Shown: positions 10,231 through 64,000 of the stretch, piece after piece
Layout: every line of letters begins with the position of its first letter
How positions within the stretch are numbered: position 1 is the stretch's first letter
Origin: a virus
Taxonomy: Duplodnaviria > Caudoviricetes
Virus record (IMG/VR): IMGVR_UViG_3300043093_000048
Span: 1 to 64,000 of that record
Length of the DNA stretch: 64,000 bases
Strand: one strand, 5' to 3'
Translations under genes and position numbers: made by a program
The notes under the pieces: generated by a model
Databases searched by the model: none
The model's input: only the letters and a program-made list of their open reading frames with translations
Told to the model about the DNA's origin: nothing

Positions 10231-10857
10231 ATGAGTTATTTAGATAATATTTATTTAGAAGGTTATTATGATGCTTTAGAAGAAATGGAAGATGACTATT
10301 CTAATGATTATGAAGATGCTTATTTAGAAGGATACTATACAGCTTTAATGGAAACATCAAGAGCAACTAAAGAATTAAAAAAGAAATATAAAGTACCAAG
10401 ATATAGATTTCTTAACGATCGTAATGCTTTTGAAGACAAAAAATTTCGTTTATCCAATGGAAACGATGCTAGAGTTCATAAGGCTACTTCTTCAGATAGA
10501 GGAGTATCAGGAAATCTTTATTCTATAGGTAGTAAATATGGAAAACCTAATTCTACTGAAAAATTTTTACCTGAACTTTACTCAAAACATTATGATAGTA
10601 GAATTGCTACAAAAGGTAAGTATGGCAAAGAAAAAAATTTATGTGATGACAATGACAATATACATAAATTTTATAAAGATGGCAAAAATACAATAGTACA
10701 TGATAGCCAAAAAGAGAAAAAAAAATGGTATGAAGATGACAAAAGAACTAAAAGTAGAGTCACTTTTAAAGATAAAGCTAAAGCAGATTATGGTTTCTAT
10801 GCTTTTAAAACAAAAGATGGTGGTAAATGGAAAAATGAATTTAAATTTAAAAAATAA
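10231..10857 (+). CDS. YLEGYYDAL-tag family protein; acidic N-terminal tag and Lys/Arg-rich core (putative internal head protein)
   Basis: YLEGYYDALEE and YLEGYYTALME followed by a strongly basic region; AACT-N6-TA upstream. Confidence 0.6.
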   Translation: MSYLDNIYLEGYYDALEEMEDDYSNDYEDAYLEGYYTALMETSRATKELKKKYKVPRYRFLNDRNAFEDKKFRLSNGNDARVHKATSSDRGVSGNLYSIGSKYGKPNSTEKFLPELYSKHYDSRIATKGKYGKEKNLCDDNDNIHKFYKDGKNTIVHDSQKEKKKWYEDDKRTKSRVTFKDKAKADYGFYAFKTKDGGKWKNEFKFKK

Positions 10858-10867
10858 ATTTTTAAAC

Positions 10868-10905
10868 CAACCCTTAAGGATATTTGCCTTAAGGGTTTAA
10901 TTTTT
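10868..10905 (+). terminator. Hairpin terminator
   Basis: AACCCTTAAGG...CCTTAAGGGTT followed by a T-rich run. Confidence 0.7.
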
Positions 10906-10917
10906 ATATTATACGAA

Positions 10918-10929
10918 AACAAACTTTTA
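10918..10929 (+). promoter_or_regulatory. AACA-N6-TA promoter motif
   Basis: AACAAACTTTTA upstream of 10961. Confidence 0.55.
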
Positions 10930-10960
10930 TTAGATTACTTAAAAGAGAGGTGTATAAAAC

Positions 10961-11890
10961 ATGAAACGATTAAATGATTCAGCAATTTTTTCTAAGTTAA
11001 TTAATAATACAGAATTAATTAATAAAATGAAGTTAATAGTTTCAAGAAATGGTATAACTTTATTAACTCCAAAAGATTTAGAATCATCTTATTCAGATAT
11101 AAATAGAAGAATTAAATATTCTACAAAAGGTCCTATCATGGATAAAATAGCTAAAGGAATCATTGTTCCTTTTAGAGATGTTAAAACTAAAACTCCAACA
11201 TATCTTCCAACTATTACTGGAAAAGGTGTTAATGGAGATTTTAATATTTATGTAAATCTTGAAAGATATATGAATTCTTCTGGTGAAATTTATCCTAAAA
11301 CTTTCTTTGCTTTATTGCAATGTTGTTTAATGTCTTATGAATTTGCAAAGAAATGGGATACTTATGTAAATAATCTTGATTTTGTTAAAGATGCTAGTTT
11401 TATTTATTCTAGAATGACTACTAAAGTTCTTGATAAAACATTTGCTTTAGATTTAGATACCTTTAATTCAGATTTACTTTCATTCATATTTGCAAAGTTC
11501 TTTATTGTAAATATGTGTGGAAGAGCAGACAATGATTTAAATGATAATATTGCATATAAGTGTTGCTTTAATAAGTCTTCATTAGATTTAATTAAACAAG
11601 AAGAAGAATCTTTAAGTCCTAATAAATATAATTCTTTCTTTGAATTAATAGATGCTCTTAAAGAAATTAAGTCAATTAAATCAATTAATGTAAGATCTTT
11701 TATTGAAAATTTCACTAGAATGTTTGGTGAAGGAAGCCTTTTAGCATTAGATTATTTACCTTCATTTATTCAGTGTGTTACTAGTGCTGCTATAGGTGGC
11801 GGTTTAAATAAAGACTATATGTATGAAAGTGTAGCAGGAAAAATTATTCAGAACTTATATTTAACTATTACAAAGTTAATTTCATATTAA
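10961..11890 (+). CDS. Hypothetical protein, probably late/virion
   Basis: 309-aa ORF with RBS and AACA-N6-TA promoter; directly upstream of the giant ORF. Confidence 0.55.
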   Translation: MKRLNDSAIFSKLINNTELINKMKLIVSRNGITLLTPKDLESSYSDINRRIKYSTKGPIMDKIAKGIIVPFRDVKTKTPTYLPTITGKGVNGDFNIYVNLERYMNSSGEIYPKTFFALLQCCLMSYEFAKKWDTYVNNLDFVKDASFIYSRMTTKVLDKTFALDLDTFNSDLLSFIFAKFFIVNMCGRADNDLNDNIAYKCCFNKSSLDLIKQEEESLSPNKYNSFFELIDALKEIKSIKSINVRSFIENFTRMFGEGSLLALDYLPSFIQCVTSAAIGGGLNKDYMYESVAGKIIQNLYLTITKLISY

Positions 11891-11911
11891 TATATAAAGG
11901 AGGGAAAGATA

Positions 11912-27388: not shown

Positions 27389-27464
27389 GTGTCATTAACT
27401 CAGTTGGTAGAGTAACGCCCTTTTAAGGCGTGAGCCAAGGGTTCAAATCCCTTATGACACACCA
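27389..27464 (+). tRNA. tRNA-Lys(UUU)
   Basis: Acceptor GTGTCAT/ATGACAC, anticodon stem ACGCC/GGCGT with loop CTTTTAA, TTCAAAT T-loop, encoded CCA. Confidence 0.95.
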
Positions 27465-27657
27465 AATTTAAGTTTAAATTATAATTATAAACAATTTTTT
27501 TATAATTATAATTTATTCTTTTCCGTTAAAGGTTGAAATTCCTATTATTATTAACCTCCTATAATAATAATGAAATGGTAATTAAATAATCTACCTCTAC
27601 GTGGTATTACTAGAAGATTCTTTTTAATAAGAATACTAAAAGATTATTAATATATAT

Positions 27658-27733
27658 TCTTCCATAGCTCAGTCGGTAGAGCAATCGGCTGTTAACCGAT
27701 TTGTCGTTGGTTCGAGTCCAACTGGGAGAGCCA
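27658..27733 (+). tRNA. tRNA-Asn(GUU)
   Basis: Acceptor TCTTCCA/TGGGAGA, ATCGG-CTGTTAA-CCGAT, GTTGG-TTCGAGT-CCAAC, CCA. Confidence 0.95.
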
Positions 27734-27736
27734 AAT

Positions 27737-28114
27737 GCTGGTATGATGGAATAGGCAGACATAGCGGACTTAAAATTGAAAATTGAGATTTGATATAGGA
27801 ATATATCATCTAAAGGCAGCTAAACGGTTTTAGTTAAATAAGTACTAACTGAAGTTTTTATTGTTGGTAACGAATACACTGATATATCTAAGAAATACTA
27901 CGGTCCTGAAATAATGGATAGCAGTTAATACCGTGCCAAAAACTATTATATAATAGTTTGTGCGTAGAGACTTTATACTGCCCATCCAGAACGGATGTTG
28001 ATAAAGTCCAGACTACAAAATATTTTATTTATAAAATATGTTACGAAAGTAATAGTGGTAAGAAAATCCGCTGATAGCAATATCGTATCGGTTCAAGTCC
28101 GATTACCAGCACCA
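27737..28114 (+). tRNA. trnL: tRNA-Leu(UAA), split by a group I intron (exons 27737-27771 and 28063-28114)
   Basis: Acceptor GCTGGTA/TACCAGC, anticodon stem GCGGA/TCCGC, spliced loop CTT^AAAA, long variable arm, ATCGG-TTCAAGT-CCGAT, ACCA. Confidence 0.92.
27772..28062 (+). mobile_element. ORF-less group I intron in the tRNA-Leu anticodon (291 nt)
   Basis: P1 CUU/AA paired to UUGAG with U-G at the splice site; P3 GGCAG/CUGCC; P4 ACGGU/ACCGU; P7 GACUUU/AAAGUC; P8 CAUCC/GGAUG; terminal G (GGUAAG). Confidence 0.9.
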
Positions 28115-28243
28115 AGCTTTTTAATATATATTTAATTATATATTAAAAAGTATAGCTGAAGTTTGTAAATAGCAGTAATAACATCCTTTTTATGGCAATG
28201 CCAAAAAGCTAAGATTGTCGTGAAGATAAGCTTAGCTTTTATA

Positions 28244-28881: not shown

Positions 28882-28887
28882 AATTAA

Positions 28888-30144: not shown

Positions 30145-30624
30145 TTACTTAGCTTTCTTTCTAAGCTCACTCATGATTCTCTTTCTGTCATTAGGCTTTA
30201 ATCTTTCATATAACTGTAATAATTCCATTGTATCGGCTTCAAAAGTTCTTGCACCTGGTAAAAAGCTATTCTTTCTATATAATACACCATTTGTAGAACC
30301 ATAAGTACCCTTAAGTAAACCACCCTTAATAGTATTACCCTTATCTAAATAATATTTAGTAGCAGCAATTCTATCTGGTGAGTCACCTACACCTATATTA
30401 GCTTTAATATCACCAACGAAATCTCCACCACCAATCATTGGAAAAGGATTAGCCTGAATTTCCATTTCATTTAAAGCATCATAATAACCTTCTAAATAAG
30501 CATCATCATAATCATCTTCAAAGTCTACACCATCATCATCATAATCATAAATGTCTAAGTCTTCTTCAGATTCTGATAAAGCATCATAATAACCTTCTAA
30601 ATAAGCATCATCTAAATAACTCAT
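30145..30624 (-). CDS. YLEGYYDAL-tag family protein
   Basis: AYLEGYYDAL twice; 5' region nearly identical in DNA to the gene at 10231. Confidence 0.6.
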   Translation of the reverse strand: MSYLDDAYLEGYYDALSESEEDLDIYDYDDDGVDFEDDYDDAYLEGYYDALNEMEIQANPFPMIGGGDFVGDIKANIGVGDSPDRIAATKYYLDKGNTIKGGLLKGTYGSTNGVLYRKNSFLPGARTFEADTMELLQLYERLKPNDRKRIMSELRKKAK

Positions 30625-37482: not shown

Positions 37483-39198
37483 TTATAAACCATAATAATC
37501 TTCATAATAATCTTCGAAATAATCCATATCCATTTCTTCATACATTTCTGTATAATATCTAATTTCTTCCATATCATATTCATCAATATCATCAAAAGAT
37601 TCATAAATAGCTTCATAGAACTGTTCATTAAATTCTAATAAATCAGAATAATCATAATCTTCACAATAATAACCTAAAGATTCCTTTAATGATTTCTTTG
37701 CTTTTTGCATTGCTTTCCATTCTTCATAAGAAACCTTAGATCTCTTTCTAGGATTTTCAGCTACCCATTTTTCATATTGCTTCTTGTCATAAACTTTCTT
37801 ACCAGCAACAATACCTGTAGTAATAGCTGCTGCACCTGCTGCACCTGCTATCATTGCACCAGTATGTTTATTACCTGATTTTTCATCAGTTTTATTCTCA
37901 GTGCTTTTAGCAACTTTATTTGATGGAAGATTTGTATCAGTCTTAGGTGTAGGAGCGGAAGGTGTAGGAGCGGAAGGTGTAGGAGCGGAAGGTGTAGGAG
38001 CAGGAGTAGTCTTCTTTGGCTCTTCTGCAGCAGCAATAGCTCTACTATTAATTCTTTCAGCTTCCTCTCTTGTTTTAGTTTCAACACCTTTAAGAATTGG
38101 TGATGTTCTTCCTTCAGCATTTCTCTTTGCAACAACTTGATTACCAGCATCTTGACCTGGATTACCATTTCTTCTATTTTCTTTTTTCTGTCCTAAAACT
38201 TCTCCAGAAAATTCATCTCTTTTAGTTGATATATTATTTTTACTTCTGTTATAATGATCTGCTTTAGTTTCAGCTGTTTTTATTTTCTGTTTATTTCCAG
38301 ATTTTTTAGCACCTTCTAAGTTAGTATTAGCTTGTTTACTTCTATTCTCTTTAAATTCAGCAAGCTCTCCTGAATGAGTACTTGTTTGATTTGCATGTGT
38401 AATTGGTTTACCCTTTGGAGTATGTGTTGTTTGAGCTTTAATTCTATCTTCTAATGCCTTTTCTGGATCTTTTTCTCTATTTGAATTCTTTTGTTGTAAT
38501 CTTTGCTGTTGATCTTGATTTTTTTTCTTTGCTGCTTCTACTTCATCTCTTGTCATTCCAGTAGCTGCTGCAATTTTTGAAGTAGCTTTACCATTGGCAA
38601 TCATTTCTCTTTTCTTAGCAGCATCTCTTGACTGTTGAGTTGTTGCAGTGCTTCTTTCATCTGAATCTTTATTAAATTTATCTAAAGCAGCAGCTGCCTG
38701 TCTTTTTGATACATTTTTAAATTGATTGTCATAAACTTGTCTGCTTTGTGCACCAAAGCTAGCCATACTATTTTTATCCTTATCATGTTTTGTAGCATAG
38801 TAATCTTTTTTAACAGAAGCAGCACCAGTTAATTGGTTTCTTTGTTTATGTAAGTTAGCTAATTCTTTTTTTTCATAATCAGTTTTATTTTTTTTACGTT
38901 GTAATCTTTTAATTTCATCATCTAAGTCAGTTACTCTTTCATCAGTACCTGCTGCAGCATTTAAACGGTCAGTTAATGCATTTTCTGTTAAATAATCAAA
39001 TGCTTCTGAATAATAATCATAGAGTGCGTCATACATGCCTGCAATTGCAGCATCTTCATAAAAAGCATCTTCATAGAAATAATCATTTAAATCATCAGAA
39101 TATTCTGGATCATAATTTTCTATTAAATAATCATATGCTTCATTGTATATATATTCTTCATTTAATAAATATTCATATTCTTCATCGATATAAAACAT
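37483..39198 (-). CDS. Acidic-tagged basic protein (both termini Tyr/Asp/Glu-rich), putative internal head protein
   Basis: Acidic N-terminus to YLTE, K/Q/N-rich core, PTPSA repeats, Gly/Ala hydrophobic segment, acidic tail after SLKE. Confidence 0.6.
   Translation of the reverse strand: MFYIDEEYEYLLNEEYIYNEAYDYLIENYDPEYSDDLNDYFYEDAFYEDAAIAGMYDALYDYYSEAFDYLTENALTDRLNAAAGTDERVTDLDDEIKRLQRKKNKTDYEKKELANLHKQRNQLTGAASVKKDYYATKHDKDKNSMASFGAQSRQVYDNQFKNVSKRQAAAALDKFNKDSDERSTATTQQSRDAAKKREMIANGKATSKIAAATGMTRDEVEAAKKKNQDQQQRLQQKNSNREKDPEKALEDRIKAQTTHTPKGKPITHANQTSTHSGELAEFKENRSKQANTNLEGAKKSGNKQKIKTAETKADHYNRSKNNISTKRDEFSGEVLGQKKENRRNGNPGQDAGNQVVAKRNAEGRTSPILKGVETKTREEAERINSRAIAAAEEPKKTTPAPTPSAPTPSAPTPSAPTPKTDTNLPSNKVAKSTENKTDEKSGNKHTGAMIAGAAGAAAITTGIVAGKKVYDKKQYEKWVAENPRKRSKVSYEEWKAMQKAKKSLKESLGYYCEDYDYSDLLEFNEQFYEAIYESFDDIDEYDMEEIRYYTEMYEEMDMDYFEDYYEDYYGL
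37946..38001 (-). repeat. 15-bp coding tandem repeat (PTPSA)
   Basis: (GGTGTAGGAGCGGAA)x3 plus partial on + strand. Confidence 0.9.
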
Positions 39199-39224: not shown

Positions 39225-39875
39225 TTAAAATAATTCTAAAATTTCACTTACTGAATATCCCTCATCTACAAGACTTTCAATAATTATCATATCCTGATAA
39301 TCATCAGTATATCCAGATTCAAGATAATATTCTTCCTTTAATGGCTTTCCATTAGCAACCCACTGCTTATAAGAAACCTTAGAACGTTTTCTTGGATCTG
39401 CTTCTTGCCATGCTTTATAATGTTTTTTATCAATAAGTGTTTTAGCACCTACAGCTAAACCTGCAACTGCTGCTGTACCACCAGCTACAGCTATGCCTGT
39501 TTTTAAATTTTTATTTTGTCTATTTGCTTTTTCTAATTCTTGTTTAGTATAATTATGATCAGATCTTTCAAAACCTAATCTCTGTCTTAATTTTTCATTT
39601 GTATTTTCTAAGTTATTAATTCTCTTCTTTCTTGCTGCTGCAATAAGTTCAGTTTTCTTTTTTTGTGTAAGTTTACCAACTTCACCATCTTTAGAATACT
39701 TAGGATTCTTATTTTTACTAACTGGTTGTTCGACTGGTCTCCAGCCATTTTCATCCATTGTTTGTCTAACCATATCGTCAGTCCAGCCCTTTTTTTTCAT
39801 TTCTCGTTTGTAACGATTTGATTCTAAAAGTGCATCACAATATCCTTCTAAATAAATATCATCATAATAATACAT
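39225..39875 (-). CDS. YLEGY-tag family protein, paralog of 37483-39198
   Basis: MYYYDDIYLEGYCDALLE; shares Gly/Ala segment plus KK.Y..W...PRKRSKVSY..W; acidic tail after PLKE; ATG 39875 with AAGGAG RBS. Confidence 0.6.
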   Translation of the reverse strand: MYYYDDIYLEGYCDALLESNRYKREMKKKGWTDDMVRQTMDENGWRPVEQPVSKNKNPKYSKDGEVGKLTQKKKTELIAAARKKRINNLENTNEKLRQRLGFERSDHNYTKQELEKANRQNKNLKTGIAVAGGTAAVAGLAVGAKTLIDKKHYKAWQEADPRKRSKVSYKQWVANGKPLKEEYYLESGYTDDYQDMIIIESLVDEGYSVSEILELF

Positions 39876-45526: not shown

Positions 45527-46768
45527 TTATCTATATTTTGCTGGCATACGAATAGCAGGAGTTAATGGCATTGTATACATAAGATTAATAGACTCCTTAA
45601 ATGTTACAGGCGTACCATCAGCTCTATATCCAACAGTTCCTGATTTAACATTTCCTGAGAGAGGTTTACCATTTTTATCATAAATAATTGGATTACCATT
45701 ATCATCTTTTTCAGGTCTTGTTGCAGATGGTTTATTAGTTGTTGATGTTTGAGCAGCAGCTTGTTGTGTATTACCATTGCCATTAGCAGGTGTAGTTTGT
45801 GTTGGTTGAGGTGTTTGGGTATTACCATTACCAGCAGGAGCAGCAGCTTGTTGTGTATTACCATTGCCATTAGCAGGTGTAGTTTGTGTTGGTTGAGGTG
45901 TTTGGGTATTACCATTACCAGCAGGAGCAGCAGCTTGTTGTGTATTACCATTGCCATTAGCAGGTGTAGTTTGTGTTGGTTGAGGTGTTTGGGTATTACC
46001 ATTACCAGCAGGAGCAGCAGCAGGAGCTTCTGGTTGACCTTTAGCCTTTCCTTGCTTCTTTTTTTCTTTCTCTTCTTCTCTTTTCGCTCTATTTTCTTGC
46101 ATTCTAGCTTGTCCAGCAACAATTCTTTGTCCTCTTTCACTATTGGCATCAACTACTATATCATTACCATCTTTATCTTTTTTATTAAGTATAATATTAT
46201 CAGTACCAGTTAAGTTTTCTCCTTTTTTAACAGCTTTTTTAGCAGTTTTCTTATCACCAACAGACATAACAGCATCGCCCATTACATTATCAGAACCTAT
46301 AGTTCTAGTTCTTGAAGCACCATTATATTGTTGTTGAGCTATTTCTGAATTTCTTGAAGTATTTCTAATATTTTTAATAGCACCACCAATACCACCAGAT
46401 TGCTGCATAAAGTTACTTGCATTTTGTTTAAAGTTTTTAAAACCACCAGTTTCTGCACCTGTAGCTTTAGCGTTAGAGTTTACAGAGTTAATAGTTTTCT
46501 TAGCCATAGAGCCTGCAGCTACAGCGCCACCTACCAATGCAGCGCCACCTAATAATTTTTTAAAGAAACCTTCATTAAGCATAATATTTTGTAAATATTC
46601 TGATTCACTTAAAGGCTCATAACCATTTTCTTCACAACTTTCTAAGTAATAATTATATGACTCTAATATATAACTTTCACACATTGAAATTGTTTTTTGA
46701 TCATTTGGATCATCTATATCACATTGTGATAGTCTTTCAACACATTCAGCTAAAAGATATAATTTCAT
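45527..46768 (-). CDS. Acidic-leader protein with Gly/Ala segment and 29-aa repeats, putative internal head/ejected protein
   Basis: Acidic leader ending MLNE-G, LLGGAALVGGAVAAG, repeats, FKE-S near C-terminus; AACA-N6-TA promoter. Confidence 0.55.
   Translation of the reverse strand: MKLYLLAECVERLSQCDIDDPNDQKTISMCESYILESYNYYLESCEENGYEPLSESEYLQNIMLNEGFFKKLLGGAALVGGAVAAGSMAKKTINSVNSNAKATGAETGGFKNFKQNASNFMQQSGGIGGAIKNIRNTSRNSEIAQQQYNGASRTRTIGSDNVMGDAVMSVGDKKTAKKAVKKGENLTGTDNIILNKKDKDGNDIVVDANSERGQRIVAGQARMQENRAKREEEKEKKKQGKAKGQPEAPAAAPAGNGNTQTPQPTQTTPANGNGNTQQAAAPAGNGNTQTPQPTQTTPANGNGNTQQAAAPAGNGNTQTPQPTQTTPANGNGNTQQAAAQTSTTNKPSATRPEKDDNGNPIIYDKNGKPLSGNVKSGTVGYRADGTPVTFKESINLMYTMPLTPAIRMPAKYR
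45751..46021 (-). repeat. 87-bp coding tandem repeat x3 (AAAPAGNGNTQTPQPTQTTPANGNGNTQQ)
   Basis: Unit starts at 45751, 45838 and 45925. Confidence 0.95.
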
Positions 46769-46876: not shown

Positions 46877-48010
46877 TTAATTATTTGCATATCTTTCTAA
46901 AGTAGGTAATAAAATTCTTTTTAATTGTAGTTGATTCTTACCATCTAAAACACAACCTGAAGCAAATGGATGACCGCCACCGCCATATATAGAAGCTATT
47001 TTGGTTAAATCAATATCATCATAAACTCTTCTAAAATTAATACTTCCATATTTAAAAGATACATTGATTATATATTTAATATTAAATCTTGTATATATTT
47101 TTTTATTAATAATATCATTTTTAAGCATATCACAAATTAAAGAAACATTATCATCACTTCTAATAATAATATATTGAATATCTGGATGAGTAAAACCATC
47201 TTCATCAATATGATCAAGAACTATTGAGGTATTTAATACTCTATTATATTCTTTATTAATACTTTCTAATGTTTCATTAATAATAGTTTTTTCAGTTTTA
47301 TTAAATGAAAAAACTATACTTTCCTTTTGCACTTGCATTAAAAAGAACTTAGTTCTTTGCATATGTGAAAATAATAGATTTAAATCTCTAGCCATTAAAT
47401 TATTATTATTTTTCCATTCAAATGTATCCCAGTCATTAACATTTTTTAAATAACTTTCTAACCAAGCTTTTTGATCATTTAATTTAGCATGTTCAAGACC
47501 TAATGTTGTATTAGTCCATTCAATTGATTGTCTATTAGCACAAAAGTTATATAATTGTAAACTAGCACAATTGGTCATATCATTAAAATATTCTATCTTA
47601 TCAAATAAAGTAAATATTTTATCTCTAAATGTTTTTTCACTATCTGCATGATGATCAATAAAAAATATCTTTTTAAATATACTTGAATAACCTTTATTAG
47701 GAGAATTTAAAAGAGTAGTAAATTTTTTAAAAGGATTTAATATATAATCTTCTAGATCTTTTCCTTTAAAGTTTAAATCAGTTATAAATAAATAATCATA
47801 AATTTTAGCACCATATTCATTATCAATATCAAAGAATTCTTTAATCTTATCATAATCATTATAACTAATAAAGTCATAATTAAAATTAATATTTTTTGTA
47901 TTATAAAATTTTTTAAATACTAATCCACAACTAACTCCATCTAGATCATTATGAGTAAACACTTTAACTCTAATAGTTGATATATTAGAGATAGTTTCTA
48001 TATCCCTCAT
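46877..48010 (-). CDS. DHH/DHHA1 phosphoesterase
   Basis: THNDLDG, ITDL, IDHH, GGGGHPFASG; ATG 48010 with GGAGG RBS. Confidence 0.88.
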   Translation of the reverse strand: MRDIETISNISTIRVKVFTHNDLDGVSCGLVFKKFYNTKNINFNYDFISYNDYDKIKEFFDIDNEYGAKIYDYLFITDLNFKGKDLEDYILNPFKKFTTLLNSPNKGYSSIFKKIFFIDHHADSEKTFRDKIFTLFDKIEYFNDMTNCASLQLYNFCANRQSIEWTNTTLGLEHAKLNDQKAWLESYLKNVNDWDTFEWKNNNNLMARDLNLLFSHMQRTKFFLMQVQKESIVFSFNKTEKTIINETLESINKEYNRVLNTSIVLDHIDEDGFTHPDIQYIIIRSDDNVSLICDMLKNDIINKKIYTRFNIKYIINVSFKYGSINFRRVYDDIDLTKIASIYGGGGHPFASGCVLDGKNQLQLKRILLPTLERYANN

Positions 48011-48779
48011 ATTCAAGTCCTCCTGTATTATATAAAGAATTTGAATCAGATCCATTGAAAAATGGTTTATCAAATAATTCAACCGAAGTAGGTTTATCAA
48101 CAGCTCTGACTACATCTTCTATTTTTAGAATACAAGTTTGTTTCCTTATACCTAAATTAATAAATCCATTATTTTCAAAAAATCTAATTTTTGATTCTTC
48201 AGAAATATCTATTTCAGCCATATTAGCGGATAAACTAGTTTTAGCCATCTTTAATAAATCTTTAGCAAATCCTAAACCACTATATTGTGAACTAACATCA
48301 AATTTAGTAATAATATTATTACCATTTCTACTTTCTACTTCTACTTCTGCTATTTGATTATTAAAATTATCAAAAAATTTATAACCTTTAATTTTAATTC
48401 TATTAGACTTAGTAGTTCCACTATTATCATTATAATAACTATTATAAGATGATTCATAACTTCTTCTATTAAAATCCAATAATTGCATAGGTTTCATACA
48501 TTCTTCAAAAGAAGAAATTTTATTAGCAGTTTTATTAAGAGAAAACTGTCTTCCAGCAGATAATTGTTTAGCTTTAACTCTTGCAATTCCATTTTTTGTC
48601 ATACCACTATATTTACCTGAATTTGTTGATACTCTATTACTTGCTGATGGTGAAACTTCATATCCGCCTCTAGTTTTTGTTGGTCCGTTCACACCTGTAG
48701 ATGTATGAACTGTTCTAACTCTTTTTATCTTAAACTTTGGACCTTCATTATATAATCTAAAACCAAAATCATTATACAT
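47985..48779 (-). CDS. Protein with C-terminal GNAT acetyltransferase-like domain
   Basis: FDVSSQYSGLGFAKDLL (motif A-like) and IRFFENNGF; short leader ending LYNE-G; late promoter. Confidence 0.6.
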   Translation of the reverse strand: MYNDFGFRLYNEGPKFKIKRVRTVHTSTGVNGPTKTRGGYEVSPSASNRVSTNSGKYSGMTKNGIARVKAKQLSAGRQFSLNKTANKISSFEECMKPMQLLDFNRRSYESSYNSYYNDNSGTTKSNRIKIKGYKFFDNFNNQIAEVEVESRNGNNIITKFDVSSQYSGLGFAKDLLKMAKTSLSANMAEIDISEESKIRFFENNGFINLGIRKQTCILKIEDVVRAVDKPTSVELFDKPFFNGSDSNSLYNTGGLEYEGYRNYL

Positions 48780-56937: not shown

Positions 56938-57247
56938 TTAGAATCTATACTTAAAATAATTATCCATATTACTAACCACAGAATTCTTTAAGAATAATTT
57001 AAGAGTTTCATTACCTTCTTTAATTGAAAGTAATTTATTAGCTCTATCTACTTCTACATTTGAATAATCTTCATTAATATTAAAATTAAGAGATTCACAA
57101 ATAGCATTAATTCTTCTATCTTCCTTAGTTACATATTCTGCTAAATCAGCCATATTAAAATTAATAAGACCTTCATTAAGCACATTATTATCATATGACT
57201 CAGAAATAGTTCTAGTCATATAAGCTTTATCATGTGATGGAATAGTT
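56938..57247 (-). CDS. Prohead protease, exon 2
   Basis: A ACT ATT CCA TCA CAT completes DWV-TIPSHDKAY; tail rich in I/L-x-E sites. Confidence 0.85.
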
Positions 57248-57596
57248 CATTACCATCATTATTCTTCACATAAGTTCGTTAATCTTATGCAGTTCTCTTA
57301 TGAACTTCTCTAGTTTTATTTATATCTAGAGTTGAGACTATATCTTCATAGAAAATATTTCTATGCTCCCCATTTCGATTTAATCAGGAATTACTGAATT
57401 ATTACTTCATACCTGAACCACTTGGCTCTACTCTACTCTCTTCTTCAATTATTCTTTAAGAATAATTTATGATTTCGATAGTCGTTGAACGTTACAAAAA
57501 AAAACTTCTTATAAAAAGAAGCTTTTTTGTCTTCGCTGCTGATTATCCTTATATAAAGGAGTTTCCAGCAATTAAAGGAGTTTATACTGAGCAACA

Positions 57597-58715
57597 TTAT
57601 TCTTCGATTATTTCATAATTTTCATTTAAATATTTGTCTAAATTTTTAATATAATCTTCATCGTAGGAAAGTCTTAAAAGATCTTTATTATTTTCTTTAC
57701 ACCAATCATTTTTCATTTTATCATGTTTTTGAGTTAAAGATAATTTATTTTCATCTTTATACCAACCAGCTTCAAAATGTTGTTTTCCATCATATTCAAT
57801 AAGTAAATCATATTCAGTTAAGTAAAAATCAAATCTTAATAAATATTTATCTTTACAAGTAGAAAAAGTTTTTTCTTGAATATAATTTATATAATTATTT
57901 TCTAAATATTCTTTTATTTCCTTAACCGCTTTAGATTCTGAATTATGTAAATTACAACAAGGACATCTATTTCCTCCTAAGAAGTGAGTTGGTGTCATTT
58001 CAAATATATAATGATTACAATTATTACTATTATGTTGAAATTTTATTTTAGAGCTATTATTAATATAATCACTTATTACTATATATTCATCTTTAACTAA
58101 ATCATATACTTCTTTTTTAAACTTTTCAGTAGTTTTTAAGTGTGTTCCAAAACAATAAGGACATCTTCTACCACTTGAAAATGATTTTGGCTCTACATAA
58201 TAAATATTATTACATTTTTTATGACGTAATTTTACTTTAGTCTTACAATTAATATAATTACTTAATAATTCATAATCATCACCAATTTCTTTACTAAATG
58301 AATCAGTAGTTTTCTTTTTAAGCTTAGAACAATTAGGACATCTATGATTTTGATGTAAAAATTTAAAAGGTTTCATTTCAAATTCAGTATTACATTTATT
58401 ATGTTTCATTTTAATTTTATCATTAGTTGTTTTATATTCACCTAATACTTCATATTCATTTCCTACTAAATTATATATTTCTTTTTTAAATCCTTCAGTA
58501 GTTTTCTTAGGTGTTCCAAAACAATAAGGACATCTTCTACCTCTTAAAAAATCATTAGGTCTAGTTTCAAATTCAGTATTACATTTATTATGTTTCATTT
58601 TAATCTTAATTTTATTACTAACATATTCACCTAATACTTCATATTCATTTCCTACTAAATTATATATTTCTTTTACAAATTCTTTTTGTGTTTTTCTTTG
58701 TTGACAATAAGCCAT
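57597..58715 (-). CDS. Intron-encoded zinc-ribbon/EDxHD homing endonuclease
   Basis: Four H..C...RCPxC repeats; FDFYL...LIEYDGKQHF...HDKMKNDWC. Confidence 0.85.
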   Translation of the reverse strand: MAYCQQRKTQKEFVKEIYNLVGNEYEVLGEYVSNKIKIKMKHNKCNTEFETRPNDFLRGRRCPYCFGTPKKTTEGFKKEIYNLVGNEYEVLGEYKTTNDKIKMKHNKCNTEFEMKPFKFLHQNHRCPNCSKLKKKTTDSFSKEIGDDYELLSNYINCKTKVKLRHKKCNNIYYVEPKSFSSGRRCPYCFGTHLKTTEKFKKEVYDLVKDEYIVISDYINNSSKIKFQHNSNNCNHYIFEMTPTHFLGGNRCPCCNLHNSESKAVKEIKEYLENNYINYIQEKTFSTCKDKYLLRFDFYLTEYDLLIEYDGKQHFEAGWYKDENKLSLTQKHDKMKNDWCKENNKDLLRLSYDEDYIKNLDKYLNENYEIIEE

Positions 58716-58738
58716 ATTAAACACTTCCTTTCACGAAT

Positions 58739-58746
58739 ATAATATA
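58739..58746 (-). promoter_or_regulatory. TATATTAT early-type motif inside the protease intron, upstream of the endonuclease
   Basis: CGTATATATTATATTCG about 25 nt before the ATG. Confidence 0.45.
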
Positions 58747-58799
58747 TACGTAAAAGTTTAAACTAAAATTATTTTTTTAACCATCGATAATAACTTCAT

Positions 58800-59290
58800 A
58801 CCCAGTCATATGCCACAATCATTAATGGTCCATATACACGGTTATATTGTCCTTCTTGCTTAATAACATTTCCAAGTGCTCTCATAGAAAATGAAACACG
58901 AGAGCCTTGTCTAATCAATCCTCTCATGTCATAGCCTGTAGCTGTTTGTGCAGTTTCTACAATACCTTTTAAGAGGTTTCCTTCCCAACTAAGAGAAGTT
59001 ACAATATGACTAATATTTGTTTGATCTATATAAGACTGGCGGTGAATATCACTACTGAGCGGATGCCCTGCTTCGCCGAAAAAACATTTATTAGCAATTT
59101 TTTCTTTTACAGTTGGATTATTTAAAGCATCAGATAAAACATCTTTACCATAAATACGTTTATTTCTATTTGGAGCATCAGCTTCTTGAAGTATTGCTTC
59201 AAATGTAATTGATTTATTATCATCTGCTAAAATAGAAGGTGTAGAAGAATTAAATTCTTCACAAACAATAAATCCTTCACTATTATTCAT
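58800..59290 (-). CDS. Prohead core protease (T4 gp21-like), exon 1; spliced product 266 aa
   Basis: LQEAD..NRNKRIY, GEAGHP (His), SHI, SFSMRALG (Ser), AYDWV (Asp). Confidence 0.9.
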
Positions 59291-60302: not shown

Positions 60303-61229
60303 GTGATAACTTTGGATTATAAAACATTTTTAAATGAATCATGTAAAGATATTCAAACAGCAAGAAAATTTGTTTCTGAAGTTGGAAAATTAGCTAAAAA
60401 ATATGATGCTAATTATTTTATAGTAACTGATGGAGCTTCTGGAATTAATAATAGTGGAAATCCAGCTGTTAAAAATGCTAGAGAATGTCATATAAAATGG
60501 GAAAAAGAAAATGGTGGAGATCCTTATGAAGATTGGGGAAAAAATGAATCATATGATGAATTATATAATGAAACATTAGAAACTTCTGTAACAAGACCTT
60601 TTCTTTCTAAAGATGTAACACTTTATCATGGTTCTAAGATAAAATATAAAAATGACGTAATAGATCCTAGATTTGGTGCTATTAATATTGGCACTAAATT
60701 ATCGAGTCCTAGATATTCTTCTTGGTGGACGACAGATAAAATTTTCCCATTATTCAGTTCAGCACAAACAGTATTAAGAAAATTATTATGTAAATATATA
60801 GATAATAAAGAAGATTTTGAAAAAGCTTATGTTCTTGATTTTAAAAATAGAAAATTTTATATTAATCAAAAATATAAAGATTTAATTGATTGGAATTTTT
60901 CTAGTGAAAATTATCTATATCAAGTTACTGTTCCAAGAAGAATTGTTGGAAGAGGACATAATATAGAAATTGATGAATATACTTTAGATCAGCCAATTAA
61001 AGCTGATAAAGTTAAATTAATTAAATTAAAAGATTTAAAACCTTTTATAGAATTTAAAGATGAATCTTTTATTATATTAAAAATTAAAGAATTTGAAAGT
61101 AGTCATGCTACTTATAAGCCAACAGTTATGGATAAAATGATTTATTATAGTAATGATGAAATGAGAAAAATTAGAAAAGATTATAGAAAGAAATTTGGTT
61201 ATTTAACTGATGGAGAATTTAAATATTAA
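60303..61229 (+). CDS. Putative head-packaged protein with ADP-ribosyltransferase-like motifs
   Basis: FLNE-S and LYNE-T sites; TLYHGS...SWWTTD...YLYQV...DEY pattern; likely start TTG 60312. Confidence 0.4.
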   Translation: MITLDYKTFLNESCKDIQTARKFVSEVGKLAKKYDANYFIVTDGASGINNSGNPAVKNARECHIKWEKENGGDPYEDWGKNESYDELYNETLETSVTRPFLSKDVTLYHGSKIKYKNDVIDPRFGAINIGTKLSSPRYSSWWTTDKIFPLFSSAQTVLRKLLCKYIDNKEDFEKAYVLDFKNRKFYINQKYKDLIDWNFSSENYLYQVTVPRRIVGRGHNIEIDEYTLDQPIKADKVKLIKLKDLKPFIEFKDESFIILKIKEFESSHATYKPTVMDKMIYYSNDEMRKIRKDYRKKFGYLTDGEFKY

Positions 61230-61285
61230 AAAAATCGTATATAGGATATACCTATATACGATTTATATTTTATTTTAAAATAAAC

Positions 61286-61939
61286 TTAGATATCATAACC
61301 GTTATCTAAATAAGCCATATAATAGCCTTCTAAATAAGCTTCAGTTTCATCGTCATCATCATAATAATCATCTTCATAATCATAATCATCATAATCTTCA
61401 TCATAATAATCATAATCATCATAATCTTCATCATAATAATCATAATCATCATAACCCATATCTTCTAAAGCTGCATAGAAACCTTCAAGATAAGCTTCTT
61501 TAAGTGCTGGTTCTTTACTTGATACTTCCTTAAATTTTGCACAATTCTTTCTATAAGATGAACCACTTATTTTATTAGCTCCAATAGTTCCACCTGCAGC
61601 AACAGCACCAGTAACAGCAGCACCAGCAGCAGCAACAGCTAATTTATTATATTTTTTAGCTAAAGCTGCATACTTTGCTTTTTCTTCCTTATTCTTTGTC
61701 TGTTCTGCTAATTTCTTATACTTATTTGCCTGTTGTTTAAGCATAGCTGCACTTGTTGCACCTGCAGTTGCAGCAGTAACTCCGCTACCTACAGTAATTT
61801 TTCCTGCTTTACTACCAGTAGCTTTCCACACTGCTTTAGCTCTATTTTTTTTCTTTGCAATTTTGCCACCTTCAATTGCCACCTCATCATAAGTTGGTTG
61901 ATCTGCGGCTTCAGCTAAAACCATATCTAAATAATTCAT
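61286..61939 (-). CDS. YLEGYY-tag family protein (C-terminal tag), Gly/Ala helical-hairpin core
   Basis: VLAE-A leader; YKKLA...KN..EKAKY..L.KKY core; AYLEGFYAALE, DYDYYDED repeats, AYLEGYY. Confidence 0.65.
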   Translation of the reverse strand: MNYLDMVLAEAADQPTYDEVAIEGGKIAKKKNRAKAVWKATGSKAGKITVGSGVTAATAGATSAAMLKQQANKYKKLAEQTKNKEEKAKYAALAKKYNKLAVAAAGAAVTGAVAAGGTIGANKISGSSYRKNCAKFKEVSSKEPALKEAYLEGFYAALEDMGYDDYDYYDEDYDDYDYYDEDYDDYDYEDDYYDDDDETEAYLEGYYMAYLDNGYDI

Positions 61940-61983
61940 ATTATTACCTACTTTCTTTTTAAATTAAAATTAATAAATATTTG

Positions 61984-62511
61984 TTAATATTCTAAATATT
62001 CTATTTCTTCAAGAGCATCATAATATCCTTCTAAAAAATCTTCTGTAAGCTTAGTTTTAGCAGCAGAAGGACAATTTTTTTTAGCAATTTTAGCTTGTTT
62101 AATAGCTCTATTATTAATTCTTTTAGCATCGATATAAGGTGTATATTCTGTTGATGCTCTAGCTGCTGTAATTGCTCCAGCACCTAATGCTAAATGCTTA
62201 TATTTTTTTGCCATAGCTTCATACTTTTTTCTTTCATTTTCATTTTTTGCTTGTTTTGCTAATTTCTTATATTCTCTATATTTTACAGCTGCTAAAGCAG
62301 TGGCTGTTCCACTAATAGCAGATTTATTAGCAACTCTAGAAAGTCTTCTGGCTCTATCGTTATTAAAAGTTTCTTTATTTATTTCATTAGAGAATTTTGC
62401 CACTTTTCCTAAAGCAATTTTTTGTTCATATTTTTTCTTAATTGGATCATTCGTTTTAAGAGCATAATTTTTTGAACTTTCATTTAAATTATATAATTCT
62501 AAATAATTCAT
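61984..62511 (-). CDS. YLEGYY-tag family protein, paralog
   Basis: NLNE-S leader; same core; ends DFLEGYYDALEEIEYLEY. Confidence 0.65.
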   Translation of the reverse strand: MNYLELYNLNESSKNYALKTNDPIKKKYEQKIALGKVAKFSNEINKETFNNDRARRLSRVANKSAISGTATALAAVKYREYKKLAKQAKNENERKKYEAMAKKYKHLALGAGAITAARASTEYTPYIDAKRINNRAIKQAKIAKKNCPSAAKTKLTEDFLEGYYDALEEIEYLEY

Positions 62512-62534
62512 ATTAATCACTACCTTCTTTTTTA

Positions 62535-63038
62535 TTAATATTCTAAATATTCTATTTCTTCAAGAGCATCATAATAACCTTTCAAATAAGATTCTTCTAA
62601 AGGAACTACATTACCAGCATCAGTACGATATGTTAATTTTCTTTGTAAATCTGAATATTGTTTTCTACTTTTTCTAGTAGCACCATTAATACCTTTATCT
62701 ACAGCATGACTACCAATAGCAACTCCTGCACCAGCAACACTTGATATTTTTAAGGCTCTAATTCTTTTTTCATATTTTTTTACTAAAGCTTCATATTTTG
62801 CTTTTTCTTTCTTATTTTTTGTTTCTGATGCTAATTTTTTATATTTGTTATATTCTCTTTTTGCAGTAACAAGATCAATAGCACTAATTGCAGCTAAACT
62901 GCCACCAAAAATTTTGCCAGGCTTTGAATACATTTTTTGTTTGTCATTTAATTTTTCAAGTTTAATATTTTTACGACCAACTTTATGAAATTCATCAAAT
63001 TCTTTTTTATTTTTTTCTCTAAATTCTTTATAACTCAT
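62535..63038 (-). CDS. YLEGYY-tag family protein, paralog
   Basis: Same core; ends SYLKGYYDALEEIEYLEY, with 3' end identical in DNA to that of the 61984 gene. Confidence 0.65.
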   Translation of the reverse strand: MSYKEFREKNKKEFDEFHKVGRKNIKLEKLNDKQKMYSKPGKIFGGSLAAISAIDLVTAKREYNKYKKLASETKNKKEKAKYEALVKKYEKRIRALKISSVAGAGVAIGSHAVDKGINGATRKSRKQYSDLQRKLTYRTDAGNVVPLEESYLKGYYDALEEIEYLEY

Positions 63039-63075
63039 TATAATAAAATTCTCCTTTCGTTATAATTATTATTTA

Positions 63076-63107
63076 TATCTATTTGTTTTTTTGTCAACAT
63101 ACACTTA
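63076..63107. promoter_or_regulatory. Back-to-back divergent AACA-N6-TA motifs
   Basis: AACAAATAGATA (-, 63076-63087) and AACATACACTTA (+, 63096-63107). Confidence 0.6.
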
Positions 63108-63134
63108 TACATTTTATAAAAAGAGGTGAATAAA

Positions 63135-64000
63135 ATGTCAGAATTATCTAATAAACAAAGAAATTCTTTAAATAAAAATACATTTGGAATTCCTTCTTTA
63201 AGAAAATATCCATTAAATGATAAAGATCATGTACAAAAAGCAATACAGATGTTTCATCATTGTCCTATAGAATATAAAAGAGAATTAGCTCATAATATTA
63301 ATAAAAATGCTAAAAAATATAATATTACTATTTCTCAAAATTCTCCTATTTATAATTATTTAAATGAAAGTGAACAAGTTGAAATAGATTTAATGAATGA
63401 TATTTATTTATTAGAAGAAGATTTATATTATAATGAAGCTTTTGGAATGAATGAAGATGAAGCTAGAGGTACAGTAGACACTGCAATGCAATTATGGAAA
63501 AAGAGAAAAAAATTTGTACAAAATAATAAAGATAAACAAAGATTAGTTACTGATATTAGAAACGAAAAACTATCTTTAAGTTCTTTACAAACTAGAAATG
63601 ATTATTTATCTATTATACAAAGAGCAAAATCTACTGTAAATACTATGAGTAAAAAATTATCCACTGGAGAGTATCAAGATGCTAAAACAATCAAAGGAAA
63701 AGGATATAATGCTGGTGTAAATGGCGCAGCTAAAACTGTTGGAAAATTAGCAGGTACAGTGGCAGCAGGTGTAGCAGTCGGTGCAGTTGCTGGAGGAGCT
63801 TTAGGTAAAAGATCTGCTAATAATAAAGGTAATGGTAGAGTTGTAAGTACTATGAAAAAAACTACAGGAGCGGTTGCAGGAGCTGTAGCTCTAGGAACTG
63901 TTGGTTCAATGGTTGGTAAAGGAATGGTTGTTTCAGATAATTTTAAGAAAAATAATACTAGACATAGAGATGATCCAGTTAGAAAACAAGCAGATCGTTA
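63135..64000 (+). CDS. Partial ORF (runs off window): N-terminal DUF6582-like domain, acidic linker, Gly/Ala-rich segments
   Basis: Not in ORF track; MSELSNKQRNSLNKNTFGIPSLRKYPLNDKDHVQKAI; YLNE-S and YYNE-A sites; AGAGGTG RBS and AACA-N6-TA at 63096. Confidence 0.7.
   Translation, partial: MSELSNKQRNSLNKNTFGIPSLRKYPLNDKDHVQKAIQMFHHCPIEYKRELAHNINKNAKKYNITISQNSPIYNYLNESEQVEIDLMNDIYLLEEDLYYNEAFGMNEDEARGTVDTAMQLWKKRKKFVQNNKDKQRLVTDIRNEKLSLSSLQTRNDYLSIIQRAKSTVNTMSKKLSTGEYQDAKTIKGKGYNAGVNGAAKTVGKLAGTVAAGVAVGAVAGGALGKRSANNKGNGRVVSTMKKTTGAVAGAVALGTVGSMVGKGMVVSDNFKKNNTRHRDDPVRKQADR

What the first reader, a model, noticed from the sequence alone, without database searches (positions are those of the whole stretch)
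10231..64000. Candidate portable capsid-loading tag system: acidic YLEGYYDALEE tags fused to unrelated cargo and bounded by protease-type sites
Seen: six scattered genes (10231, 30624, 39875, 61939, 62511, 63038) carry the motif YL(E/K)G(Y/F)(Y/C)xAL(E), at the N-terminus in three and the C-terminus in three. Five more (39198, 46768, 48779, 60303, 63135) have acidic or short leaders or linkers. In all of them the acidic part meets the cargo at hydrophobic-x-Glu (ALME-T, ALNE-M, ALLE-S, YLTE-N, MLNE-G, LYNE-G, FLNE-S, VLAE-A, NLNE-S; C-side SLKE-S, PLKE-E, ALKE-A, KLTE-D, PLEE-S). Most have AAC(A/T)-N6-TA directly upstream, and the protease's own tail has the same sites. Known: T4 gp21 cleaves L/I-x-E and removes the capsid-targeting propeptide of internal proteins; phiKZ gp175 also cleaves after Glu. 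Inference: a position-independent tag recruits diverse proteins into the prohead (and may neutralise their basic cores) and is then clipped, leaving ejected effectors. A tag usable at either end is not something I recognise as described.
Basis: partly seen in the sequence, partly recalled or inferred. Interest (0 to 1): 0.85.

Follow-up and report, generated by a model that had tools for sequence, protein, structure and literature searches.

The report
Movable acidic tag on phage proteins
An uncultured 265-kb phage related to Bacillus phage AR9 puts the same 11-residue acidic peptide (YLEGYYDALxE) on either end, both ends or the middle of about 18 small, very basic late proteins; it is most likely a longer, movable version of the phage T4 label that loads proteins into the head and is then cut off, but nothing shows packaging or cutting yet.

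Summary
[YF]L[EK]G[YF]Y.AL.E occurs 9 times in 6 window genes and 24 times in 18 genes of the 265-kb genome. It is absent from reversed and shuffled controls and is conserved at protein level. It sits at N-termini, C-termini, both ends or between modules. One cargo family carries it N-terminally in some members and C-terminally in another.

Cargo cores are basic (pI 9.4-10.2 against a proteome median of 6.0), and many have Gly/Ala-zipper segments. Nine of 15 tag genes have an AR9-type late promoter; most of the rest lie directly downstream of another tag gene. Three lie beside a T4 gp21-type head protease.

The motif ends in L-x-E. Where cargo lies upstream, a second [LIVM]-x-E sits 1-2 residues before the motif (19/27 against 3/54 copies).

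The best reading, at about 50%, is a T4-CTS-like prohead-loading tag excised by the protease. Packaging and cleavage are untested.

Of the "five more" genes, three (39198, 46768, 63135) are credible relatives and two (48779, 60303) are at chance level.

This scan has noted CTS-like tags on other phage DNA before, once including C-terminal copies.

I class it as a new variant of a known kind. Interest 0.58.

The parts
10231..10857 (+). Tagged gene, 208 aa. It has two N-terminal tag copies (10252-10284 and 10321-10353), the second ending ALME|T, then a basic cargo of pI 9.9. A late-promoter-like AACTAAATATTA lies at 10190-10201.
30145..30624 (-). Tagged gene, 159 aa. It has two N-terminal tag copies (30571-30603 and 30466-30498) separated by an acidic Tyr-rich linker. 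ALNE|M is followed by the NPFP-IGGGD cargo domain. Its promoter, 5'UTR and tag DNA are near-identical to those of 10231, and the similarity stops right after AL.E.
39225..39875 (-). Tagged gene, 216 aa from the ATG at 39875. It has one N-terminal copy (39822-39854, YLEGYCDALLE|S), a basic core with a Gly/Ala zipper, and a degenerate acidic C-terminus (PLKEE-YYLESGY).
37483..39198 (-). 571-aa protein directly downstream of 39225-39875 on the same strand. Both ends are strongly acidic and aromatic with degenerate tag remnants (AIAGMYDAL; SLKE-SLGYY). The core is basic, with a Gly/Ala zipper and the same DPRKRSKVSY box as 39225. It is a probable diverged family member.
   Evidence: no HMM hit
61286..61939 (-). 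Tagged gene, 217 aa. It has a T4-CTS-like N-terminus MNYLDMVLAE|A and a basic Gly/Ala-zipper core. ALKE|A is followed by two C-terminal tag copies (61460-61492 and 61304-61336) joined by a D/E/Y linker. Compared with the G002 orthologue, the ends are conserved and the core has diverged.
61984..62511 (-). Tagged gene, 175 aa. The N-terminus is MNYLELYNLNE|S and the core is basic. KLTE|D is followed by a C-terminal tag (62005-62037). It is a paralogue of 62535-63038 and 61286-61939.
   Evidence: (D9)
62535..63038 (-). Tagged gene, 167 aa. The core is basic, and PLEE|S is followed by a C-terminal tag (62556-62588). It is the first of three tandem tag genes on the protease strand. A late-promoter-like site lies at 63076-63087.
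58796..59290 (-). Head maturation protease, exon 1 (residues 1-164). It is T4 gp21-type and has a late-promoter-like site upstream.
56938..57243 (-). Protease exon 2, the C-terminal tail containing VLNE|G, ICE, INE and IKE. It is separated from exon 1 by an intervening sequence that carries the HNH endonuclease gene 57597-58724.
45527..46768 (-). 413-aa protein. A 65-residue acidic leader ends in MLNE|G and is followed directly by the Gly/Ala zipper LLGGAALVGGAVAAG. It has no canonical tag and is a candidate relative only.
63126..64000 (+). 321-aa protein that runs to 64091, divergent from the tag-gene trio. It has an acidic linker (YLNE|S ... LYYNE|A) and a Gly/Ala zipper. It has no canonical tag and is a candidate relative only.

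Best explanation
YLEGYYDALxE is a modular acidic peptide, predicted helical at low confidence, whose spacing would suit an amphipathic helix. It marks a set of small, very basic late proteins for incorporation into the assembling head core. It is then cut out by the phage's T4 gp21-type prohead protease at the L-x-E that ends the motif and, when cargo lies upstream, at a second L-x-E placed 1-2 residues before it.

Shown:
- The motif is real, conserved at protein level and lineage-specific.
- It works as an evolutionary module at N-terminal, C-terminal and internal positions.
- Its cargos are basic.
- Its genes carry AR9-type late promoters or lie directly downstream of genes that do.
- Several of its genes sit next to head genes.
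- Its junction sites follow the polarity that cleavage would need.

Inferred:
- Binding of the tag to a prohead core or shell partner.
- Cleavage by the protease.
- Retention of the basic, often Gly/Ala-zipper, mature proteins with the DNA.
- Their ejection into the host.
For: 1. The motif is significant and selected at protein level.

2. It is modular. 10231 and 30624 share promoter, 5'UTR and tag DNA that ends at AL.E, followed by unrelated cargo. The NPFP cargo family has N-terminal tags in window 30145-30624 and in P0012-14. Its member P0017 has a C-terminal tag preceded by KLKE|S, with hhalign probability 95% and E 3.9e-8. In G001, L029 places the tags between two modules, and P0020 strings four tags between modules.

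3. Junction polarity. [LIVM]-x-E ends 1-2 residues before the motif in 19/27 copies that follow cargo, against 3/54 other copies (Fisher 1.5e-9; stricter version 13/22 against 2/31). N-terminal and inner copies have Y-[ED]-D there instead. The background for [LIVMF]-x-E is 0.023 per residue.

4. The protease is gp21-type (PHROG 207/3014; tblastn; PDB 5JBL). T4 gp21 cuts after L/I-x-E, and the T4 CTS MKTYQEFIAE is cut this way (PMC9026906; PMC8442874). The capsid protein N-terminal region keeps [LI]-x-E at about residues 23 and 85 in this phage, AR9 and LPJP1.

5. Cargo pI is 9.4-10.2 in 15/16 proteins, against a proteome median of 6.0, and tags carry a net charge of -4 to -30. T4 internal proteins are likewise described as highly basic (PMC8442874).

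6. Late class. AACA-N6-TA is the AR9 late promoter (PMC5312081). It peaks at -45 to -36 here, precedes the protease, virion and baseplate genes, and precedes 9/15 tag genes. Of the AR9-type early-promoter elements, none lies in the usual 50-200 nt position before a tag gene; one palindromic half-match sits 108 nt upstream of 146721-147260, which also has a late site.

7. Context. Three tag genes lie about 2-4 kb upstream of the protease on the same strand. They lie within about 400 nt of it in G002 and about 3 kb from it in G001. Gly/Ala-zipper relatives flank the capsid gene.

8. C-tagged proteins also begin with CTS-like leaders (MNYLDMVLAE|A, MNYLELYNLNE|S, MDYSYFLEE|D). M-x-Y starts occur in 10/15 tag genes against 8/208 others. 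Between orthologues the ends are conserved and the core is free to vary.

9. Precedent. SPN3US gp47 loses a propeptide to expose a transmembrane N-terminus and is inferred to be an ejection protein (PMC5694885).
Against: - There is no proteomic, structural or genetic evidence that any tagged protein is in the virion or is cut.
- No tag or cargo homologue was found in cultured relatives with virion proteomes (AR9, LPJP1).
- The downstream L-x-E is equally conserved in C-terminal copies, where cutting would remove only 2-7 residues (22/29 against 19/24). It may therefore be a structural part of the helix and not a cleavage site.
- The copies are related by paralogy and orthology, so the Fisher values overstate independence.
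- Some junctions lack the site (YCDL, KKRA, and AMND in G001).
- AlphaFold models of the tags have low confidence.
- The cleavage specificity of AR9-group proteases has not been measured.
- The Gly/Ala segments could be membrane anchors of non-virion late proteins.
Confidence: 0.5

Rival explanations
1. The tag is a non-cleaved assembly or interaction module. The tag helices bind one another or a common partner and, together with the basic cores and the hyper-acidic 65395-66420 protein, form a head-internal body or coacervate-like core. The tag stays on the mature protein.
For: The tags are multivalent, with tandem, both-end and four-tag proteins. Acidic Tyr-rich linkers resemble the D/E/Y runs of the scaffold-like protein 65395-66420. 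The downstream L-x-E is conserved irrespective of position, as expected for a helix face. Some junctions carry Asp and not Glu.
Against: The cargo-side [LIVM]-x-E polarity (19/27 against 3/54) has no obvious role in a pure binding module. The switch from Y-x-D to L-x-E occurs exactly where a cut would be needed. The phage encodes a gp21-type protease.
Confidence: 0.2
2. The tag addresses late proteins to a destination other than the head interior. Candidates are a membrane complex (lysis, superinfection exclusion, an assembly site) or the tail and baseplate giants. The Gly/Ala zipper would act as a membrane anchor.
For: Gly/Ala-rich hydrophobic segments occur in 8 tagged proteins and also in two giant tail-type proteins. 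10231-10857 sits in front of a virion structural gene and a 3271-aa giant. Late promoters also drive lysis genes in AR9 (PMC5312081).
Against: The genes cluster with the protease, the capsid gene and a late-promoter RNA polymerase subunit gene, and not with lysis genes. The tag resembles a CTS and has L-x-E junctions. The NPFP and other cargos lack hydrophobic segments.
Confidence: 0.15
3. The tag is an intramolecular masking or chaperoning propeptide only. The acidic tag neutralises the basic, DNA- or membrane-active core until maturation and has no targeting role.
For: Tag and cargo charges oppose each other, and in some proteins they nearly cancel, giving a full-length pI of 4.3-4.9 for 30145, 61286 and 146306.
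Against: Simple charge masking would not need an 11-residue motif that is nearly invariant across unrelated cargos. In most proteins a single tag (-4 to -8) cannot offset +11 to +23.
Confidence: 0.1
4. The pattern is a chance similarity or a recombination-spread DNA repeat with no function.
For: Some copies share flanking DNA. LEGYYDAL alone occurs by chance and in LacI-type regulators across metagenomes.
Against: Controls gave 0 matches. Shuffled proteins score at most 4.4 bits, against 16.5-30.7 for real copies. Synonymous codon variation accompanies an invariant Gly and Ala. The motif is conserved in relatives whose protease is 82-89% identical, while the protein cores diverge.
Confidence: 0.02

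Closest known systems
Phage T4 capsid targeting sequence (CTS, MKTYQEFIAE) of IPI/IPII/IPIII and Alt, removed by protease gp21 at L/I-x-E
   Same: Both are short conserved peptides on otherwise unrelated, highly basic proteins, and both end in L-x-E. Both phages have a gp21-type protease. In both, the tag ends are conserved while the cargo diverges, and promoter-plus-tag behaves as an evolutionary cassette. The N-termini of C-tagged proteins (MNYLDMVLAE|A) resemble the T4 CTS in length and layout.
   Different: The motif differs in sequence and is longer. It is often present in tandem with acidic Tyr-rich linkers. It occurs at C-termini, at both ends and between modules, with a second L-x-E on the cargo side. 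The host phage belongs to the AR9 group and is not T4-like. No sequence homology to the T4 CTS can be shown. Function is untested here.
Long N-terminal propeptides of head and ejection proteins in phiKZ, 201phi2-1 and SPN3US (S80 proteases gp175/gp245)
   Same: These are giant phages with two RNA polymerases and many processed inner-head proteins. The paralogues gp53 and gp54 share identical N-termini. gp47 exposes a transmembrane segment after processing.
   Different: Those propeptides are 20-254 residues long and N-terminal only, except for the protease's own tail. The reported sites include SQE and ALE, with the wider S/A/G-x-E rule recalled from memory. No short repeated motif has been described there.
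C-terminal processing of T4 Alt and gp21
   Same: It shows that a gp21-type protease can remove C-terminal pieces from packaged proteins (PMC9026906).
   Different: No conserved C-terminal targeting motif is known there, and a targeting role of those C-termini has not been shown.
Encapsulin cargo-loading peptides
   Same: These are short terminal peptides that load diverse cargo into an HK97-fold shell. They are mostly C-terminal and N-terminal in some systems.
   Different: They are not removed by a protease, their sequences are unrelated, and the shells are bacterial nanocompartments, not phage heads.

Membership tests
T4-type CTS / prohead-protease propeptide system | The genome encodes a gp21-family (S77-type) prohead protease. 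| tested here: met
   PHROG 207/3014/31489. tblastn matches to AR9-group and T4-like proteases. PDB 5JBL, E 1.6e-4. The two exons were mapped.
T4-type CTS / prohead-protease propeptide system | The same short peptide occurs on otherwise unrelated proteins. | tested here: met
   24 copies in 18 genes. The cargos include the NPFP domain, Gly/Ala-zipper basics, cargoA, and RibD_C in G001.
T4-type CTS / prohead-protease propeptide system | The peptide sits at the extreme N-terminus. | tested here: not met
   About half of the copies are C-terminal or internal. N-terminal copies and CTS-like M-x-Y leaders do exist.
T4-type CTS / prohead-protease propeptide system | The peptide ends in the protease site L/I-x-E at the junction with cargo. 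| tested here: met
   Downstream [LIVMF]-x-E occurs in 41/53 copies. Upstream [LIVM]-x-E occurs in 19/27 cargo-facing copies against 3/54 others.
T4-type CTS / prohead-protease propeptide system | The cargo is packaged in the head and the peptide is removed. | not testable with these tools
   The phage is uncultured and has no proteome. No homologues were found in AR9 or LPJP1.
T4-type CTS / prohead-protease propeptide system | The genes are expressed late together with head genes. | tested here: inconclusive
   Late-promoter-like AACA-N6-TA lies at -45 to -36 before 9/15 tag genes and before head genes. No early-promoter element lies in the usual position before a tag gene. This is an inference from the AR9 consensus (PMC5312081).
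phiKZ/SPN3US-type propeptides (S80 protease, S/A/G-x-E) | Cleavage motif with a small residue at P3 (S/A/G-x-E). | tested here: not met
   P3 is Leu or Ile in the motif and at the upstream junctions.
Double-glycine leader / C39 peptidase system (considered because the genome has a split C39 domain) | The leader ends in GG at the cargo junction. | tested here: not met
   Junctions read AL.E. Only the NPFP cargo has an IGGG box, and it lies 10-15 residues inside the cargo.

The most novel reading that the evidence does not exclude
The tag is an excisable, position-independent and multi-copy head-loading label. One 11-residue helix, bracketed by protease sites on whichever side faces cargo, would let this phage lineage load single proteins tagged at either end. 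It would also load 'beads-on-a-string' precursors that the head protease cuts into several basic, membrane-active (Gly/Ala-zipper) proteins ejected with the DNA.
Probability: 0.35. Interest if true: 0.75.

Novelty: new variant of a known kind. Interest (0 to 1): 0.58.

Why it matters
If the tag works as proposed, capsid targeting by a gp21-type system would not be tied to the N-terminus. It could be built as a cassette cut out on both sides. This would explain how giant phages acquire and reshuffle dozens of inner-head or ejected proteins. It also gives a concrete, testable list of predicted cleavage sites for an AR9-group protease whose specificity is unknown. It would give a compact tag for loading foreign proteins into large phage heads from either end. 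It also flags a class of very basic Gly/Ala-zipper proteins as candidate ejection proteins of phages that infect anaerobic Firmicutes-type hosts.

Tried and rejected
- PHROGs and Pfam on all tagged proteins gave no significant family.
- tblastn of a tagged protein against 50,697 phage records gave no match.
- The tag HMM and the NPFP cargo profile found nothing in AR9, LPJP1 or two more distant jumbo contigs.
- blastp of the protease neighbourhood against the AR9 and LPJP1 neighbourhoods matched only the protease, an endonuclease and one weak DNA-polymerase hit.
- AlphaFold of 30145-30624 gave helical tags at low confidence and a moderately confident cargo domain with no PDB fold match. The Atlas hits to HTH proteins had TM about 0.5 on a poor model and were not used.
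- AlphaFold of the both-ends-tagged 139136-139630 was uninformative, with pLDDT 48.
- No PDB chain carries the motif.
- A search for long proteins carrying the double tag found none.
- The idea that an AAA ATPase is paired with the NPFP protein was dropped: the two 387-aa neighbours showed no shared family.
- A double-glycine/C39 leader reading was rejected, because the junctions do not end in GG.
- A type VII YxxxD/E signal was considered and rejected on spacing.
- The metagenome DNA scan was mostly chance or LacI-type RLEGYYDAL; about 19 true AT-rich hits were kept.

Full report
**What the window is.** It is the first 64 kb of a 265,109-bp virus record rated 100% complete, with 24.8% G+C. 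PHROG annotation shows a jumbo phage with split RNA polymerase subunits, many genes interrupted by homing-endonuclease inserts, virion and baseplate genes and a head maturation protease. The protease's first exon is 54% identical to that of Listeria phage LPJP1. It is about 51% identical to those of Staphylococcus jumbo phages and 48% to Bacillus phages AR9 and PBS1. It also matches hundreds of T4-like phages and the T4 gp21 structure 5JBL. Exon 2 lies at 57243-56938, beyond an insert that carries an HNH endonuclease gene.

**The observation.**
- Genome-wide, a degenerate DNA pattern gives 14 matches against 0 for its reversed control.
- Protein patterns and an HMM give 24 copies in 18 genes.
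- Real scores are 16.5-30.7 bits, against a maximum of 4.4 in five-fold shuffled proteins.
- The invariant Gly uses all four codons and the Ala uses three. Selection therefore acts on the peptide, not on a DNA repeat.
- Some proteins carry the tag at both ends (139136-139630 and 263761-264237). Two carry it internally.

**Distribution.** The tag is found in two related uncultured phages: G001 (305 kb, protease 82% identical, 15 HMM hits) and G002 (protease 89% identical). It also occurs on a handful of AT-rich metagenome contigs. It is absent from AR9, LPJP1 and a more distant jumbo contig. In 5.8 billion protein clusters, only seven in the near-length range share the double tag. It is a lineage-specific invention.

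**Modularity.**
- 10231 and 30624 share nearly identical DNA from the promoter through the 5'UTR, the start codon and both tag copies. The similarity stops right after AL.E, where unrelated cargo begins.
- A profile of the NPFP-IGGGD cargo was searched against 1.84 billion representatives. It found members with N-terminal tags (P0012-14).
- It also found one member, P0017, with the same cargo and the tag at the C-terminus, preceded by KLKE|S. hhalign gives 95% probability and E 3.9e-8 over the cargo.
- In G001 the same cargo is fused behind a basic Gly-zipper module, with two tags between them (L029).
- 'CargoA' has a C-terminal tag in G000 258195-258824. It has tags on both sides in L049 and L118, and the order tag-cargoA-tag-zipper in P0016.
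- P0020 strings four tags between modules.
- G001 also tags a RibD_C-type reductase domain (Pfam E 1.5e-17).
- Position independence is therefore demonstrated at the evolutionary level.

**What the cargos are.**
- Fifteen of 16 cargo cores have pI 9.4-10.2, against a proteome median of 6.0. Only 9% of all proteins exceed pI 9.5.
- Tag blocks carry a net charge of -4 to -30.
- Eight tagged proteins contain a Gly/Ala-rich hydrophobic 'zipper'.
- The same segment occurs in 37483-39198, 45527-46768, 63126-64091 and two proteins next to the capsid gene (89922-91280 and 91320-93239). It also occurs in 166952-168127 and in two giant tail-type proteins.
- No family, fold or named homologue was found for any cargo.

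**Expression class and context.**
- The AR9 late promoter is AACA-N6-TA/G and the early promoter is AAATATATATTAT-N6-G (PMC5312081).
- Here AAC[AT]-N6-TA peaks at -45 to -36 from start codons. It precedes the protease, a virion structural gene, a baseplate gene and 9 of 15 tag genes. Most of the remaining tag genes follow another tag gene on the same strand.
- The full early element occurs 16 times, all on the + strand. Its 11-nt core occurs 26 times on + and twice on -.
- Most core matches lie 50-200 nt before + strand genes, none of which is a tag gene. The only nearby match is a palindromic half-match 108 nt upstream of 146721-147260, which also has a late site.
- Three tag genes lie about 2-4 kb upstream of the protease on the same strand. 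This neighbourhood is kept in G002 (within about 400 nt) and loosely in G001 (about 3 kb).

**The cleavage question.**
- T4 gp21 cuts after L/I-x-E. In the CTS MKTYQEFIAE, residues 4 and 7 target and residues 8 and 10 direct processing. Asp at position 10 blocks cutting but not targeting (PMC9026906; PMC8442874).
- The tag ends in [LI]-x-E in 41 of 53 copies. This holds equally for N- and C-terminal copies, so by itself it could be part of the helix.
- The more telling result concerns the other flank. In 81 copies from 57 distinct proteins, [LIVM]-x-E ends 1-2 residues before the motif in 19 of 27 copies that follow cargo. It does so in only 3 of 54 copies that do not (Fisher 1.5e-9).
- N-terminal and inner copies have Y-[ED]-D at that place. 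The switch from Y-x-D to L-x-E appears exactly where a cut would be needed to free upstream cargo.
- The copies are not independent, but at least seven unrelated cargo contexts show the pattern.
- C-tagged proteins also start with CTS-like leaders (MNYLDMVLAE|A, MNYLELYNLNE|S, MDYSYFLEE|D, MNYHDFILE|N). M-x-Y starts occur in 10/15 tag genes against 8/208 others.
- Between orthologues the first 12 residues (11/12 identical) and the tags are conserved, while the core is about 15-20% identical.
- The capsid protein keeps [LI]-x-E at about residues 23 and 85 in this phage, AR9 and LPJP1.
- The sites in the protease tail are real but not above chance.

**Comparison with known systems.**
- T4 loads IPI-III and Alt through an N-terminal CTS. 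Alt and gp21 also lose C-terminal pieces.
- In SPN3US all substrates have N-terminal propeptides of 20-254 residues, except the protease's own tail. The paralogues gp53 and gp54 share identical N-termini. gp47 exposes a transmembrane N-terminus after processing and is inferred to be ejected.
- Predicted cleavage of 45527-46768 at MLNE|G would likewise leave a Gly/Ala zipper at the new N-terminus.
- AR9 gp114, annotated 'virion protein', and LPJP1 proteins next to the protease share the layout of acidic N-terminus, hydrophobic segment and basic coil, but show no sequence similarity.
- The present system is thus CTS-like in logic. It differs in motif, copy number, position and two-sided junctions, and it sits in an AR9-group phage and not a T4-like one.
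- Earlier notes of this scan describe CTS-like tags in other phages, one with C-terminal copies. Those notes were not tested here and are not used as evidence.

**Verdict.**
- The main rivals are a non-cleaved assembly module (0.2), a non-head destination (0.15) and charge masking alone (0.1).
- Two of the 'five more' genes (47985-48779 and 60303-61229) should be dropped.
- The class is a new variant of a known kind.

Noticed in passing
window 56938-59290 (-): The head protease gene is split after residue 164. The insert carries an HNH endonuclease gene (57597-58724). AR9 and several Staphylococcus jumbo phages have a split at a similar place.
   Followed up: partly
window 1498-5256 (-): The NrdD-like anaerobic ribonucleotide reductase is in two pieces (4213-5256 and 1498-2805). 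A GIY-YIG-type homing endonuclease gene (3096-4124) lies between them.
   Followed up: no
whole genome; in the window at 14775, 26039, 34472 and 50504 (+): The AR9 early-promoter consensus AAATATATATTAT occurs 16 times, all on the + strand. The shorter core ATATATATTAT occurs 26 times on + and twice on -, and most copies lie 50-200 nt before + strand genes. This phage appears to share both of AR9's promoter types.
   Followed up: partly
window 45751-46021: Three perfect 87-nt tandem repeats lie inside 45527-46768 and encode a Gln/Thr/Pro/Asn-rich unit. A (APTPS)x4 repeat lies in 37483-39198 at 37945-38004.
   Followed up: no
G000 65395-66420 (+) (L043:1395-2420): A 341-aa hyper-acidic D/E/Y-rich protein lies just beyond the window. 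It resembles the acidic AR9 gp115 and LPJP1 protein 139 in composition, and its DDYDYDYDDYDYY runs resemble the tag linkers. It is a candidate scaffold.
   Followed up: partly
G000 91320-93239 (-): A 639-aa protein with N-terminal Gly/Ala-zipper repeats and a C-terminal HEIGH zincin motif, like AR9 gp117 ('zincin protease', motif HEIGHKV), lies two genes upstream of the capsid gene.
   Followed up: no
L103:1558-1713 (+) and L055: A 51-aa ORF with EYLEGYYDALDEEY lies in 48% G+C gut-metagenome contigs with recombination and replication-type genes. It is unrelated to the AT-rich jumbo clade and may be coincidence.
   Followed up: partly
metagenome loci L053, L085, L091, L095, L102, L108, L110, L120: RLEGYYDAL recurs in LacI-type regulator-like ORFs, so LEGYYDAL alone is not diagnostic. 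The preceding Y/F and the AT-rich context are needed.
   Followed up: yes
window 27389-28963: Three tRNA genes (Lys-TTT, Asn-GTT, Gln-TTG). The Asn tRNA is 95% identical to one in Ruminococcus phage phiRM10.
   Followed up: no
window 57219-57120 (protease tail) and G000 146721-147260, 150521-150853: The stretch Y-(D)-N-(N)-VLNE occurs in the protease tail (ESYDNNVLNEG). It also occurs just after the tag in two tagged proteins (MNEDYNVLNEV, MNEDYSVLNEV). It may be a preferred cleavage context.
   Followed up: no
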